Assembly (NCBI GenBank): GCA_044233485.1
Contig: JBIIJY010000003.1
Location: 32,481-96,480, forward strand
DNA: 64,000 bases
DNA from: Minisyncoccia bacterium
Lineage (GTDB): Bacteria > Patescibacteriota > Minisyncoccia > Phycocordibacterales > UBA6065
Direction: 5' to 3'
Positions within the stretch are counted from its first letter, which is position 1. Each line of letters starts with the position of its first letter. The position numbers are program-made. Shown piece after piece: positions 34,901 through 37,900 of this stretch.

Positions 34901-37900
34901 TTATACCCTCTCTCAATTGAAAAACTCTGCACAAGGCAGAGTTTTTCAATAGGAGTTCGGAGTAAAACCCTAGCAAAAGCTAGGTGGGTCCCCTCACTGT
35001 TACCGCCAAGGCGGAGCAGAATGTGAAGGATCAAGCCTTCGTTGGAGTCCCAAAATTTTAGGTATAGAGTTTTTACTCCGAAACCCCTCCTTTTATTGTA
35101 CTCTTTTTATACAGATTGCAAGTAACCTAGAGCCCTATCTTGTAATCAGTGAGGGCGAACGCAACAAAACCGATGAGCGCTAAAGTGATCATCAGATTAA
35201 AGATAAAAACTAGATATTTAGAGAGGTTTTTTTCTTTTGTTCGCAGAAAAATATAGACGATCAGCGGTAAAAACACTAATAGAAACAGCGGACTTATCCA
35301 GAAGATTAGAAATAAAGGATGCTCTCCGGCATACAGACCGAAAATTACTGAGAATAGTACTAGCGCCAATTGCAAAATCAATATCTTGTTGCCCATCTAA
35401 TTTAAGTTAGTTAATAACTGCTGTATATATCGTATCAATAAATCTCGTTCACTGTCACCCAGATGGCGCTTACTCAACCTTGATCTTTTTATCTCGCGCG
35501 CGAACCCTTGAATTTCTTTTCTAATATTCTTTGTTTTCTTATTCTTTTGAAGTTTCTTTTGTATCTCACCAATCTCTTTGAGCAGTTCTTTTTTGACCCG
35601 AGGTGGCACCTCAAGAGCCAGTACATACCCTCGAATGAGCTCTAGATACTGGAGAGGTGTTAAGGTTTTACTTGTATCAATTTGGGTGTCTACCCGCCCA
35701 TCACTATCTACATCAAGCTCCAAACGAGTTGATGTGCCCGTATAGAGTACTCGACCCGAGAGAGCGGTTGATACCGGTAAGTCCTCAACAGTCTGCATTG
35801 AAGACTCCACTCCATCTGCAGACACGTGCGAGATGATTGTTGTGAAAGTGCCACTGCCCGTACCTTTCAAGCGAGCTTGCACATTACTACCCGCGACGAA
35901 CCCGGCATACTTCGCCTCACCAAACTCAAAATAGTACGAGTTCGGGATTTCTGTGGTAGTGGCATTTGTTATGCGCCCCTGTGCATCGACAAGCTCAAGT
36001 GAGACCGGTGAATGAATTGAGATTTGCGAGAAAGACAGACCCGGATAGGTGCTTGAGGCCTGACTGATGTGGGCTATAGTTTCTGTACTTGACCCCACAA
36101 TAATACTCTCAAGTAATGTCTGTACTGGCTTAGTACTCAAAATACTGGCATGTGCTCGATTTTTATTTTGAGTATTGTGCCCATACAAATCAAAGTAGAA
36201 TGCCTCAGTGGTTGATTTCATTTCTGTCGCACTTACTACCGGCACAGTCCCGTCACCAGCCAAGGTTAATGTCGGTCGTGTATCTAGTGTACCGTCGTTG
36301 TCGATATAGCTAAACCGTGCCAGTGTCGGAACACCGGTCCCGGCAACCACGAAGGTACGTATATGTTCTGGTAACTGATAGTTATCAAACGTACTATGGA
36401 ACGCCTCTGCGTCAGAGTAGTACTGACTATCAAGCTTCACGGGCATAAGGAGCGAATTATACGAAGGCCGATTTGGGTCGAGACTGGCAAGTAAGAAGGA
36501 CTTTTGATCTTGAAAATTTAGCACTCCTCGGCCATAGGGCGAGAGGTTAATCCCTGAAAACGTCCGACCTCCCTGCTCAAAGGAGATAGTGCTTGTTGAG
36601 ATGTGCTCATAGTATTTTTCGGTTGGTAGAAGATAATATGGAGCTGGTATGTCGCGGCCAAGCTTTTTGGCACTTGCCTTATTTTGAAAAATACCAAAGA
36701 ATATTGATTGCTCGTACCCAAACATTAGGGCTGCTATTGTTTGCGGCGCACCAAGATGTGGTGTGGCGACAAACACCACCTTATCAATTGAACGCAGTAG
36801 ATCCTTGTCTTCCTCATCCGTAGAGTCCTCTAAAGTCTTAATAAACTCTTTTACTACCAGACCTCCATTACTATGAACCAGTATCGTCACTTTACCATTT
36901 TGAGCAGCCTCCTTAAGTCGTCTAAACTGAACCCTGAGACTTTCGCTTGTATTGCCCATTGGATCATCTGCCAGGTACTCACCCCGCACTATCTGTCGAG
37001 GTGAATAGCGCCAATCATAGACAAATATTCCAGCATTTCTATTCGTACGTGACGCAAATTCCTGTAACCACTCCTCAAATTGTCCGTAGACTTCAAAAGC
37101 TGATATCGGCTTTACCAAATCTCTCGCATATATTCCAGAAGTTACCGGGTTGCGAGTTGTTGAACTGAAGTGCAACTCCCTTCCATCAGCATTTGCGTTT
37201 GGCTCCCATAGTCGATCTTCACCGCCACGAGACTCTTGTCGATAAAGTCGACTCCCTTGAAAACCTGGTATGAACAAAACACCTGAGCAACATGCCGTCT
37301 CACTTTCTTGCACAGGAACTTCAGTAAGCCACGGACGGAACGAGACGAGATCAGTTACTTCATTACCCAGCCCCTCAGGATTACTCGCATGGTACGGCCC
37401 AGTCGCATCTCCCCAGAACACATTTGTCGCGATCACTTCATTTTCTGTGTTATTAAGAATCCCGACATTGTTATTGCGAACTGATGAATTCTCTATACGC
37501 AATATATCCGAAGATACACTTTGTGCCTGAACTTCAAATAGCGAACGCAACTGCTCCCAAAATCCTAGAATCACCGGCCCCGTATAGGCGCGTTCAATAC
37601 CATTTCCATTAGCTCGAATGTCAGAAAACTCTATTTGAACATTCCCCTCGAGGGTCCAGATACCGGTCCTGAAACCTTCTATTGTTGTTGAGGCCAGCGT
37701 TGTTGTACTGTGATCGCTCCATACCCCCTGACCTCTACCCATACCGAGCAAGGTGACATTATCGAGCCTCAGGCCAGAACTTCGAGCGTATACGGCCGCA
37801 ACATTACGAGGTTGAGTAAACAAAACACGGGCGTCAACGAGCTCAACATCCTTCGCCCGTATAAGCGACAAAGGATTGGCATCTATCCCGACTAACCCCT

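What the first reader, a model, noticed from the sequence alone, without database searches (positions are those of the whole stretch)
34919..35126. Promoter / structured RNA / terminator unit lacking any ORF: candidate riboswitch-like leader or novel small RNA upstream of a small membrane-protein gene
A ~140-nt segment (34952-35090) is closed by a 16-bp helix formed by its two ends (GGAGTTCGGAGTAAAA with TTTTACTCCGAA-CCCCTCC). It contains at least two internal hairpins, CCTAGC-AAAA-GCTAGG and CCGC-CAAG-GCGG. It is bracketed on the minus strand by a sigma70-like promoter (TTGCAA-15-TACAAT) and, immediately after the closing helix, by a perfect intrinsic terminator (GAAAAACTCTGC-ACAAG-GCAGAGTTTTTC). 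The VanZ-like four-TM protein gene follows ~65 nt later. On the minus strand this is the textbook architecture of a transcription-attenuating riboswitch or ligand-responsive leader. I do not recognise it as any known riboswitch class. Alternatives are a stand-alone 6S/SRP-like small RNA, which on either strand would have its own terminator, or a MITE-like element given the 16-bp terminal inverted repeats. Such elements are poorly charted in streamlined or CPR-like genomes.
Basis: seen in the sequence. Interest (0 to 1): 0.7.

Follow-up and report, generated by a model that had tools for sequence, protein, structure and literature searches.

The report
Compact 6S RNA gene of Paceibacteria
The flagged promoter, folded RNA and terminator form a real, conserved small-RNA gene, but it is a short, divergent copy of the well-known bacterial 6S RNA (a decoy that binds RNA polymerase) that standard annotation misses in these ultra-small bacteria, not a new riboswitch.

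Summary
On the minus strand there is a promoter (TTGCAA-15-TACAAT), a ~140-nt RNA closed by a 17-bp terminal helix (35088-34951), and an intrinsic terminator (34947-34919).

The RNA belongs to a family I found in about 120 Patescibacteria/Paceibacteria genomes and metagenome contigs. Its structure shows strong covariation: 88.5% of cells are paired, 23 of 29 pairs have double changes, and 0 of 500 shuffles reach this.

Nearly every member has its own TATAAT 5-7 nt before the first nucleotide and its own terminator. The downstream membrane-protein gene has a separate -10 box a few nt before its ATG, so its mRNA is leaderless. The RNA is therefore a stand-alone gene, not a leader or riboswitch.

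Four members give sub-threshold, correctly placed hits to Rfam 6S (RF00013; 20-31 bits against a gathering score of 46.4). The family's invariant motif GGGAG...CACCCACCU-hairpin aligns with the most conserved part of the 6S consensus. The topology is the canonical 6S layout: closing stem, 5' central bulge, apical stem, and a hairpin on the 3' side of the bulge.

Verdict: a compact (125-160 nt), lineage-specific 6S RNA. RNA polymerase binding and product-RNA (pRNA) synthesis are inferred, not shown.

The parts
35116..35121 (-). -35 element TTGCAA of the RNA's own promoter
   Evidence: Sequence. Homologues carry a conserved (C)AAGTTG / TTGnnn motif at the same distance.
35095..35100 (-). -10 element TACAAT, which places the transcription start at about 35088
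   Evidence: 110 of 113 family members have a TATAAT-like hexamer (at least 5 of 6; 90 perfect) ending 5-7 nt before model position 1, against 6% at random positions.
34951..35088 (-). 6S-like RNA body, about 138 nt (the covariance-model matches span 34947-35088)
   Evidence: R1 scores 83.7 bits. R2, built without the window or any seed sequence, scores 53.1 bits, E 2.3e-9, and this is its only hit in 64 kb. Fold z = -6.7.
35071..35088 (-). Closing stem, 5' strand (AGGGGUU-U-CGGAGUAAAA)
   Evidence: Pairs with 34951-34967. The outer 8 pairs all covary and 94.7% of cells are paired. The inner part is flipped relative to the majority type (GUAAAA/UUUUAC against AUAUUU/GAAUAU).
35052..35070 (-). 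5' central bulge (ACUCUAUACCUAAAAUUUU); predicted template region for product RNA
   Evidence: Unpaired in the minimum-energy fold. It aligns to the Rfam 6S 5' bulge 'gCCgAaaauuuuuauaaua' in members L115 and L153. A CCGA or UCUA tetramer at the stem/bulge border occurs in 89 of 116 members.
35044..35051 (-). P2 5' strand, GGG-A-CUCC (base of the apical stem)
   Evidence: GGG is invariant in 52 of 52 sequences. The inner 4 pairs covary (27, 11 and 7 double changes) and 98.6% of cells are paired. It aligns to 'GGGagccc' of the RF00013 consensus.
34994..35043 (-). Variable apical domain; in the window it has two hairpins (35040-35025 and 35019-34997)
   Evidence: Fold. Its length varies from about 20 to about 230 nt across the family.
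34986..34993 (-). P2 3' strand, GGGG-A-CCC
   Evidence: Part of the invariant CACCCACCU motif that is shared with the Rfam 6S consensus.
34969..34984 (-). Hairpin on the 3' side of the central bulge, CCUAGC-UUUU-GCUAGG
   Evidence: 6-bp helix, 91.3% of cells paired, 4 pairs with double changes. It corresponds to the hairpin opposite the 5' central bulge in canonical 6S RNAs (PMC8414754, PMC8876501).
34951..34967 (-). Closing stem, 3' strand (UUUUACUCCG-AACUCCU)
34919..34947 (-). Intrinsic terminator GAAAAACUCUGC-CUUGU-GCAGAGUUUUUC
   Evidence: Forms a 15-bp hairpin in the fold. 109 of 111 members have a hairpin plus U-run within 75 nt of the RNA's 3' end.
34863..34871 (-). Separate extended -10 promoter (TGCTACAAT) of the downstream gene; not part of the RNA but decisive for the interpretation
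   Evidence: The same arrangement occurs in 95 of 107 homologous loci.
34462..34854 (-). Neighbouring 130-aa four-TM VanZ/DUF2238-like gene; a syntenic neighbour, not shown to be functionally linked

Best explanation
This is the gene for a compact, divergent 6S RNA (SsrS) of a Paceibacteria (Parcubacteria, Patescibacteria/CPR) bacterium.

It is transcribed on the minus strand from its own sigma-70-type promoter, starting at about 35088, and ends at its own intrinsic terminator (34947-34919).

The RNA folds into the 6S layout:
- a 17-bp closing stem formed by the two ends;
- a roughly 19-nt single-stranded 5' central bulge;
- an apical stem that begins with the invariant GGG-A-NNNN / NNNN-A-CCC helix;
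- a small hairpin on the 3' side of the bulge.

By homology with characterised 6S RNAs, it should mimic an open promoter. It would occupy the active-site cleft of the housekeeping RNA polymerase holoenzyme and so damp transcription. It would be released when the polymerase uses the 5' bulge and the adjoining closing-stem strand as a template for a short product RNA (pRNA). In the window the pRNA would start near CUCUAUAC, at about 35069-35062, and read into GUAAAAAC.

Shown here: the existence of the family, its structure and covariation, its independent promoter and terminator, its synteny, and its sequence and structure similarity to Rfam 6S. Inferred only: polymerase binding, pRNA synthesis, the pRNA start site, and physiological role.
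For: 1. Family. nhmmer and covariance models find the element in about 58 of 63 Patescibacteria beta-CASP loci, always on the same strand as the gene, and in none of 17 non-CPR loci. A motif-anchored metagenome scan found it in 62 of 80 loci.

2. Structure. 29 pairs, 88.5% of cells paired, 23 pairs with changes on both sides, 0 of 500 shuffles as good, and 37-53% paired in slid controls.

3. Independent transcription unit. 110 of 113 members have a TATAAT 5-7 nt upstream and 109 of 111 have a terminator. The downstream gene has its own -10 box adjacent to its start codon in 95 of 107 loci.

4. Link to 6S. RF00013 hits lie exactly on the element and on the correct strand in L115 (29.1 bits, E 1.7e-4 when searched alone), L153 (30.9 bits, E 6.8e-5), L128 (25.4 bits) and L145 (20.4 bits). 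No other Rfam family hits the element in more than one member locus. In those alignments the family's invariant GGGAGnnn...nnnCACCCACCU lines up with the 6S consensus 'GGGagccc...gggcaCCCACCU'. L153's AUCCGAUUAACAUUUUUUAAGGGAG lines up with 'uGAgCCgAaaauuuuuauaauaGGGag', which contains CCGA, the template of the canonical pRNA start.

5. Topology. It matches the published canonical 6S description: closing stem, large 5' central bulge, apical stem, and a hairpin opposite the bulge. Strong synteny is also described for 6S (PMC8414754). B. subtilis-type 6S RNAs have a pre-formed hairpin on the 3' side of the bulge. Truncated 6S RNAs with short arms still complete the binding and release cycle (PMC8876501).

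6. Window copy. It is a true family member by a model built without it (53.1 bits, E 2.3e-9) and is single-copy in 64 kb.

7. Gene arrangement. Like E. coli ssrS-fau, the gene sits directly upstream of, and co-oriented with, a protein gene.
Against: - No member tested reaches the Rfam 6S gathering score of 46.4 bits (best 30.9). None of 15 full loci gave a gathering-level hit.
- The window copy itself gives no 6S hit even at E<=10.
- Only 4 of 30 member loci scanned at the permissive threshold produced a 6S hit.
- The family model R2 does not detect E. coli ssrS.
- The RNA is shorter than typical 6S RNAs: median about 130 nt against about 160-200 nt.
- Most members have UCUA instead of the canonical CCGA at the presumed pRNA start (81 against 8 of 116). 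The conserved GG of known pRNAs would therefore be absent.
- A central-bubble-collapse helix is not supported statistically (mean z = -0.33).
- There are no expression or binding data. I could not scan a whole genome to exclude a second, canonical 6S gene.
- The tight linkage to the VanZ/DUF2238-like gene (about 85-90% of loci) is not explained by a 6S function.
Confidence: 0.78

Rival explanations
1. It is a distinct ribonucleoprotein RNA tied functionally to its conserved neighbours. It might partner the small four-TM VanZ/DUF2238-like membrane protein, as OLE RNA partners the membrane protein OapA. Or it might be a substrate, guide or cofactor of the beta-CASP ribonuclease. Under this reading its resemblance to 6S would be ancestral or superficial.
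For: The RNA is followed on the same strand by the VanZ/DUF2238-like gene in about 85-90% of loci and by the beta-CASP gene in about 70%, including in RNA-anchored searches. When the membrane gene is missing, the RNA sits directly before beta-CASP (L044, L045, L007, L090, L147, L151, L153). 18-20 of 116 members carry a box C/D-like k-turn motif that suggests a protein partner. Rfam 6S scores are all below threshold.
Against: The whole block secY-adk-map-ndk-[RNA]-VanZ-like-(beta-CASP)-rplT/rpmI/infC is a conserved housekeeping gene order, so linkage may simply be inherited synteny. 6S genes are known for strong synteny (PMC8414754). Each partner can be absent: beta-CASP is missing in L097, L107, L143, L158 and L120, and both are missing in L161. 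No RNA-binding domain is evident in the membrane protein. The conserved core is exactly the 6S core.
Confidence: 0.1
2. It is a transcription-attenuating riboswitch or ligand-responsive leader that controls the downstream membrane-protein gene. The ligand might be a metal ion, because one homologue precedes a Mg-type P-type ATPase.
For: The order promoter, structured RNA, terminator, co-oriented gene is conserved. In L043 the next gene is a P-type ATPase whose best match is the Mg2+ type.
Against: - The closing helix is 17-21 bp, not a labile P1.
- The terminator is separate and self-contained, and I saw no conserved antiterminator alternative by eye (not quantified).
- The downstream gene has its own promoter abutting its start codon, so its mRNA is leaderless. 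This is typical of the genome. Parcubacteria often lack the anti-SD sequence (PMC9297842).
- The downstream genes are heterogeneous.
- No riboswitch family matches, whereas 6S does.
Confidence: 0.04
3. It is a MITE-like mobile element with 16-bp terminal inverted repeats.
For: Long terminal inverted repeats; the fold is strong on both strands.
Against: There is a single copy in 64 kb. It sits at the same syntenic site in more than 100 diverged genomes. Compensatory changes maintain pairing rather than sequence. Promoter and terminator are conserved at fixed distances.
Confidence: 0.01
4. It is another housekeeping RNA: SRP 4.5S RNA, tmRNA, RNase P RNA or a bacterial Y RNA.
For: A stable stem formed by the two ends and a strong promoter are typical of housekeeping RNAs.
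Against: No Rfam hit to the SRP, tmRNA, RNase P or Y RNA families at E<=10. ARAGORN finds nothing. tmRNA is detected elsewhere in related loci. By eye, the SRP domain IV motif (GNRA tetraloop with AGCA/AGG loops) is absent. No Ro/Rsr gene was seen in the neighbourhoods inspected.
Confidence: 0.02

Closest known systems
6S RNA / SsrS (Rfam RF00013), especially the Bacillus subtilis 6S-1 type
   Same: - Stand-alone, strongly promoted small-RNA gene.
- Closing stem formed by the 5' and 3' ends; large single-stranded, AU-rich 5' central bulge; apical stem; pre-formed small hairpin on the 3' side of the bulge.
- Conserved G/C-rich helix bordering the bulge, with the shared sequence GGGAG...CACCCACCU.
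- CCGA at the stem/bulge border in some members.
- Strong synteny, and co-orientation with the next gene as in E. coli ssrS-fau (PMC8414754, PMC8876501).
   Different: - Shorter: 125-160 nt, median about 130, against about 160-200.
- Scores only 20-31 bits against a gathering score of 46.4, so it is missed by routine annotation.
- Most members have UCUA instead of CCGA, so the predicted pRNA lacks the conserved GG.
- The hairpin on the 3' side of the bulge is highly conserved in sequence (CCUAG/CUAGG).
- Some members have a box C/D-like k-turn motif or large insertions in the apical stem.
- The closing stem is nearly perfect rather than interrupted by loops.
- It ends in a Rho-independent terminator rather than being processed from a longer transcript.
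Lineage-specific 6S-like RNAs outside RF00013 (6S-Flavo RF01685; Ms1 RNA of Actinobacteria)
   Same: These are precedents for clade-specific 6S-like RNAs that the general 6S model does not capture and that were found through synteny and structure (PMC9130861 for Ms1).
   Different: No hit to RF01685. Ms1 binds core polymerase and is much longer. Unlike these, the present family retains detectable similarity to RF00013.
Transcription-terminating riboswitches
   Same: A promoter-proximal structured RNA closed by a terminal helix, followed by an intrinsic terminator and a co-oriented gene.
   Different: No competing antiterminator is evident. The terminal helix is 17-21 bp. The downstream gene has its own promoter and a leaderless mRNA. 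The downstream genes are heterogeneous. No riboswitch family matches.
OLE RNA with its membrane-protein partner OapA
   Same: A structured non-coding RNA gene immediately upstream of, and co-oriented with, a small multi-TM membrane protein gene in nearly all members.
   Different: OLE is about 600 nt, unrelated in sequence and structure, and occurs in Firmicutes. No evidence here for RNA binding by the membrane protein. This analogy is recalled from general knowledge and was not tested.

Membership tests
6S RNA (SsrS; Rfam RF00013) | Covariance-model score at or above the Rfam gathering threshold (46.4 bits) | tested here: not met
   The window copy gives no hit even at E<=10. The best family members score 30.9, 29.1, 25.4 and 20.4 bits. 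No gathering-level hit in 15 full loci. This is an operational annotation criterion, not a biological definition.
6S RNA (SsrS; Rfam RF00013) | Statistically significant similarity to the 6S model, located on the element and on its transcribed strand | tested here: met
   L115 E 1.7e-4 and L153 E 6.8e-5 when searched alone, both full-length model alignments. L128 and L145 give weaker hits. All four coincide with the family-model hit coordinates and strand. No 6S hit occurs anywhere else in about 87 kb of flanking sequence.
6S RNA (SsrS; Rfam RF00013) | [quoted passage not shown] | tested here: met
   Minimum-energy fold, RNAalifold consensus and covariation counts. Compared with the descriptions in PMC8414754 and PMC8876501.
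6S RNA (SsrS; Rfam RF00013) | Conserved sequence bordering the central bulge on the apical side | tested here: met
   GGGA...CCCAC is present in 116 of 116 members and aligns with 'GGGagccc...gggcaCCCACCU' of the RF00013 consensus.
6S RNA (SsrS; Rfam RF00013) | pRNA template motif (CCGA, giving pRNAs with a conserved GG at positions 4-6) at the closing-stem/bulge border | tested here: inconclusive
   CCGA occurs in 8 of 116 members and UCUA at the equivalent place in 81 of 116. The window has CUCUA. The conserved-GG rule comes from PMC8414754.
6S RNA (SsrS; Rfam RF00013) | Binds housekeeping RNA polymerase holoenzyme and templates pRNA synthesis that releases it | not testable with these tools
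   Requires biochemistry or small-RNA sequencing.
6S RNA (SsrS; Rfam RF00013) | Reciprocal detection of a bona fide 6S RNA (E. coli ssrS) by the new family's model | tested here: not met
   R2 gives only noise (4.1 bits or less) on the annotated ssrS locus L203. E. coli and B. subtilis 6S RNAs are themselves only 38-45% identical (PMC8876501), so this negative result is weak.
Riboswitch / attenuator leader | The RNA lies in the 5' UTR of the regulated gene, with no intervening promoter | tested here: not met
   A separate -10 box ends 3-16 nt (mode 6) before the downstream start codon in 95 of 107 loci. In the window it is TGCTACAAT at 34871-34863.
Riboswitch / attenuator leader | The downstream genes are functionally coherent across members | tested here: inconclusive
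   About 85-90% are VanZ/DUF2238-like. Others are beta-CASP, a P-type ATPase, a lectin-like protein or opposite-strand genes.
Riboswitch / attenuator leader | Match to a known aptamer class | tested here: not met
   No riboswitch family in Rfam 15 matches at E<=10.
MITE | Multiple dispersed copies in a genome | tested here: not met
   One copy in the 64-kb window. The whole genome was not available.

The most novel reading that the evidence does not exclude
This compact 6S-derived RNA may have taken on a function beyond, or instead of, polymerase sequestration in Paceibacteria. It could be an RNP component acting with its almost invariably adjacent VanZ/DUF2238-like membrane protein and/or the beta-CASP ribonuclease. 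The box C/D-like k-turn seen in some members could recruit an L7Ae-type protein. A less radical version: it is a minimal 6S adapted to a lineage whose promoters abut start codons and whose mRNAs are leaderless. Its UCUA-type template would then yield AU-rich pRNAs and a different release mechanism.
Probability: 0.12. Interest if true: 0.7.

Novelty: new member of a known kind. Interest (0 to 1): 0.35.

Why it matters
6S RNA is regarded as nearly universal in bacteria. It goes unannotated in this large clade of ultra-small, mostly uncultured bacteria because the Rfam model scores these copies below threshold. None of the papers returned by my full-text searches combined 6S RNA with CPR/Patescibacteria terms in a relevant way.

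Recognising this family:
- removes a tempting false 'novel riboswitch' candidate;
- gives about 120 sequences that could extend the 6S seed alignment into the CPR;
- shows that a global regulator of RNA polymerase is retained even in ~0.7-Mb genomes;
- provides naturally minimised 6S RNAs (about 125 nt) that fit experimental findings that short-armed 6S variants still work.

It also highlights that genes in this genome appear to be expressed mostly as leaderless mRNAs from promoters that abut the start codon.

Tried and rejected
- Rfam at gathering threshold on the whole window, and at E<=10 on 34800-35250: nothing credible.
- ARAGORN: no tRNA or tmRNA.
- Repeat and pattern searches for extra copies in the window: none, so the MITE idea was rejected.
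- blastn-short found only identical contigs; nhmmer gave the first weak syntenic hits.
- SRP RNA was considered because of an AGCAG next to a tetraloop hairpin on the plus strand. I rejected it by eye, because the 5' side lacks the conserved AGG and the strand is wrong, and because Rfam gives no hit.
- A T-box was considered because the reverse complement resembles AGGGUGG. I rejected it: wrong strand, and no tRNA-synthetase gene context.
- Retron ncRNA, IS110 bridge RNA, omega RNA and Y RNA were considered from the terminal-repeat architecture. I rejected them because no reverse transcriptase, recombinase, TnpB or Rsr gene is nearby.
- A riboswitch for a metal ion was considered after finding a Mg-type P-type ATPase downstream in L043. 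I rejected it because that is a single lineage-specific insertion (L040 lacks it) and because of the promoter and leaderless-mRNA evidence.
- A central-bubble-collapse helix between the distal 5' bulge and the 3' strand of the closing stem looked convincing by eye. It is not better than shuffled controls (mean z -0.33, median +0.16), so I do not claim it.
- Reciprocal search of E. coli ssrS with the family model: negative.
- The Cas14/type VII CRISPR lead for the beta-CASP protein: 398 bits against a cutoff of 800, and the C-terminal part of the profile is missing. I treated it as general beta-CASP homology only.
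Full report
**Observation**

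On the minus strand:
- TTGCAA (35121-35116), a 15-nt spacer, then TACAAT (35100-35095);
- seven nucleotides later, an RNA whose first 18 nt (35088-35071) pair with its last 17 nt (34967-34951);
- inside it, a ~19-nt unpaired stretch (35070-35052);
- a helix GGG-A-CUCC / GGGG-A-CCC (35051-35044 with 34993-34986) that encloses two hairpins;
- the hairpin CCUAGC-UUUU-GCUAGG (34984-34969);
- the hairpin GAAAAACUCUGC-CUUGU-GCAGAGUUUUUC (34947-34919);
- 65 nt further on, the ATG of a 130-aa membrane protein (34854).

The fold is far more stable than shuffled sequence: z = -6.7 on the minus strand and -8.7 on the plus strand. The consensus scanner missed both the promoter (15-nt spacer) and the terminator (its U-run lies inside the stem). 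Comparative data below show that both are real.

**First screens**

- Rfam 15 finds nothing in the 64-kb window at gathering thresholds.
- It finds nothing credible in 34800-35250 at E<=10.
- There are no tRNA or tmRNA genes and no further copies of the element or its arms in the window.

**Organism and homologues**

The flanking proteins place the window on a 681-kb JGI metagenome contig. The closest relatives of the 459-aa beta-CASP nuclease are Zambryskibacteria, Taylorbacteria and other Parcubacteria/Paceibacteria MAGs.

nhmmer with the window RNA gave weak hits at the syntenic position upstream of the beta-CASP gene in ten of those loci. Read by eye, they share an architecture and short conserved strings.

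A covariance model built from ten sequences (A1, R1) then found the element:
- in about 58 of 63 Patescibacteria loci, always on the strand of the beta-CASP gene;
- in none of the 17 non-CPR loci.

An RNA-anchored scan of metagenome contigs used the pattern AGGGAG-N30-60-CACCCACCTA-N6-16-TAGGG. It returned 80 loci, of which 62 contain a high-scoring member.

A second model (R2) was built from 67 members. It excludes the window and every R1 seed sequence. It recovers the window copy at 53.1 bits, E 2.3e-9, as the only hit in 64 kb. The window element is therefore a genuine, single-copy member of a family of at least 116 sequences, 96-257 nt long with a median of about 130.

**Structure**

On the 52-sequence alignment A3 I scored 29 pairs in four helices: outer closing stem, inner closing stem, P2 and the hairpin on the 3' side of the bulge.
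- 88.5% of cells are standard pairs, against 74.1 +/- 0.6% in column shuffles.
- Sliding the partners by 1-3 columns gives 37-53%.
- 23 pairs show changes on both sides (226 cells).
- None of 500 shuffles reaches any of the five measures.

The outer closing stem covaries at all 8 pairs. The GGG/CCC of P2 is invariant, while its inner four pairs covary. The hairpin on the 3' side of the bulge covaries at 4 of 6 pairs. The window copy itself carries a compensatory flip of the inner closing stem (GUAAAA/UUUUAC where most members have AUAUUU/GAAUAU).

The interior of the apical stem is variable. There are two hairpins in the window. In 18-20 members there is a box C/D-like CGAUGAG...UCUGACG motif. 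In L019 there is a ~110-nt insertion.

**Stand-alone gene, not a leader**

- In 110 of 113 members a TATAAT-like hexamer (90 perfect) ends 5-7 nt before the first paired nucleotide. The rate at random positions of the same loci is 6%.
- In 109 of 111 members a hairpin plus U-run follows within 75 nt.
- The next gene has its own -10 box, frequently the extended TGnTAnAAT form. It ends 3-16 nt (mode 6 nt) before an in-frame start codon in 95 of 107 loci. In the window this is TGCTACAAT at 34871-34863.

That spacing equals the promoter-to-start spacing of the RNA gene, so these mRNAs start at or next to the start codon. The same pattern, with no Shine-Dalgarno sequences, recurs at many other genes in the window. 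This fits the reported absence of the anti-SD motif in about half of Parcubacteria (PMC9297842).

A leaderless mRNA with its own promoter leaves nothing for an upstream riboswitch to control. A 17-21-bp terminal helix is also not a plausible switching helix. The riboswitch or attenuator reading is therefore rejected.

**Genomic context**

The RNA sits in a conserved housekeeping block: secY-adk-map-ndk-[RNA]-VanZ/DUF2238-like-(beta-CASP), followed on the opposite strand by rplT-rpmI-infC.

- The small four-TM gene follows the RNA in about 85-90% of loci.
- It is missing in some loci, where the RNA is then directly upstream of beta-CASP: L044, L045, L007, L090, L147, L151, L153.
- beta-CASP is missing in others: L097, L107, L143, L158, L120.
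- L161 has neither.
- L043, L022, L144 and L085 have other genes inserted. L043 has a Mg-type P-type ATPase.

The membrane protein matches no Pfam family itself. Its homologues weakly match both DUF2238 and VanZ.

**Identification as 6S RNA**

I scanned member loci against Rfam at a permissive threshold. Hits to RF00013 (6S/SsrS) fell exactly on the element and on its strand:

| Locus | Coordinates | Bits | E-value |
|---|---|---|---|
| L115 | 1350-1485 | 29.1 | 0.021 in 26 kb; 1.7e-4 alone |
| L153 | 3269-3403 | 30.9 | 0.018 in 61 kb; 6.8e-5 alone |
| L128 | 255-356 | 25.4 | 0.37 in 61 kb |
| L145 | 636-711 | 20.4 | 2.4 in 26 kb |

No 6S hit occurred anywhere else in those ~87 kb. No other Rfam family hit the element in more than one member locus.

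The alignments explain why:
- The Rfam 6S consensus reads '...gCCgAaaauuuuuauaauaGGGagccc...gggcaCCCACCUggaAc..agCaGGuUCa...'.
- The family's invariant core is 'GGGAGnnn...nnnCACCCACCUAG-loop-CUAGGG'.
- L153 even has 'AUCCGAUUAACAUUUUUUAAGGGAG'.

The layout is the published canonical 6S structure: closing stem, large 5' central bulge, apical stem, and a hairpin opposite the bulge. Strong synteny is also a published 6S feature (PMC8414754). B. subtilis-type 6S RNAs have a pre-formed hairpin on the 3' side of the bulge. 6S-1 variants reduced to the bubble with short arms still bind, template pRNA and are released (PMC8876501). That makes a 125-160-nt natural 6S plausible. Like E. coli ssrS-fau, the gene lies just upstream of a co-oriented protein gene.

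**Limits of the 6S assignment**

- No member reaches the gathering score of 46.4 bits, and 15 full loci gave none. The same search did find tmRNA in three of those loci, so Rfam works on these genomes.
- The window copy is not detected by RF00013 at all. Its assignment rests on family membership.
- R2 does not recognise E. coli ssrS. E. coli and B. subtilis 6S RNAs are themselves only 38-45% identical (PMC8876501).
- Only 8 of 116 members retain CCGA at the presumed pRNA start. 81 have UCUA, so the conserved GG of known pRNAs (PMC8414754) would be missing.
- A collapse helix like that of B. subtilis 6S-1 looked plausible by eye but is no better than shuffled controls.

**Mechanism (inferred by homology)**

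The RNA should occupy the DNA-binding cleft of the housekeeping holoenzyme as an open-promoter mimic:
- the closing stem stands in for downstream DNA;
- the 5' bulge stands in for the template strand;
- the apical stem stands in for upstream DNA.

It would be released when nucleotides become plentiful and the polymerase transcribes a short pRNA. The pRNA would start near the conserved (C/U)C(G/U)A at the stem/bulge border and extend into the 5' strand of the closing stem. In the window a plausible pRNA is 5'-GUAUAGAGUUUUUAC, templated by about 35075-35061. This start site is a prediction only.

**Novelty and interest**

6S RNA is a well-known, nearly universal regulator, so this is a new, divergent and compact member of a known kind, not a new class. 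I found no paper linking 6S RNA with CPR/Patescibacteria.

Its value is practical. It resolves a false riboswitch lead, extends 6S into a major uncultured radiation where routine annotation misses it, and supplies naturally minimal variants. The unexplained tight linkage to the VanZ/DUF2238-like gene and the k-turn-like motif in some members leave a small chance of additional biology.

Noticed in passing
window-wide, e.g. upstream of ORF starts at 4359(+ gene 2827), 7140, 12305, 31798, 54704; and 34863-34871: Most genes lack a Shine-Dalgarno sequence. Many have a -10-like hexamer (TACAAT, TATACT, TAGAAT...) 6-12 nt before the start codon, which implies widespread leaderless mRNAs. This is consistent with the reported loss of the anti-SD motif in about half of Parcubacteria (PMC9297842).
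   Followed up: partly
L014 3447-3600; also L004 3328-3500, L006, L008 2967-3160, L060 3411-3590: In one sub-lineage the terminator stem after the 6S-like RNA encloses a conserved ~100-130-nt palindromic insert (GGCCAATCTCATTGTCTAAAATTTTGAAAT...). It may be a second structured RNA, or a MITE inserted in the terminator loop.
   Followed up: no
apical stem of 18-20 family members, e.g. L023 3445-3490, L016 3245-3300, L001: A box C/D-like k-turn motif: CAC-GAUGAG...hairpin...UUCUGA-CGA flanked by a covarying stem. It is absent from the window copy and is not a described feature of 6S RNAs as far as I know.
   Followed up: partly
L019 3234-3490: This family member has a ~110-nt AT-rich insertion in the apical stem. 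The covariance model split it into two partial hits.
   Followed up: no
window 33077-34456 (-): The 459-aa beta-CASP/MBL nuclease matches the NCBIfam type VII CRISPR Cas14 model at 398 bits (cutoff 800) and archaeal aCPSF1 at 291 bits. This is general beta-CASP homology. No CRISPR array or cas genes are nearby.
   Followed up: partly
L043 1174-3591: An 805-aa P-type ATPase, whose best match is the Mg2+-translocating type IIIB (348 bits, below cutoff), is inserted between the RNA and the VanZ/DUF2238-like gene. The close relative L040 lacks it.
   Followed up: partly
L162 1140-1261 (+): A sub-threshold hit to the ribosomal protein L20 leader (RF00558; 33.2 bits against a gathering score of 58.7), in a locus from the family whose usual neighbourhood includes the infC-rpmI-rplT operon (position relative to infC in L162 not checked).
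   Followed up: no
L004 7776-8190 (-), L001 9052-9359 (-), L063 9062-9365 (-): tmRNA genes lie a few kb downstream of the 6S-like RNA in related genomes. smpB is also nearby in L161, L097, L107 and L143.
   Followed up: no
window 35127-35396 (-) and 35397-38480 (-): In the window, the genes upstream of the RNA are an 89-aa multi-TM protein and a 1027-aa secreted beta-helix/LCAT-like protein. Most relatives have ndk there instead, so the left flank of the conserved block has been rearranged in this genome.
   Followed up: no
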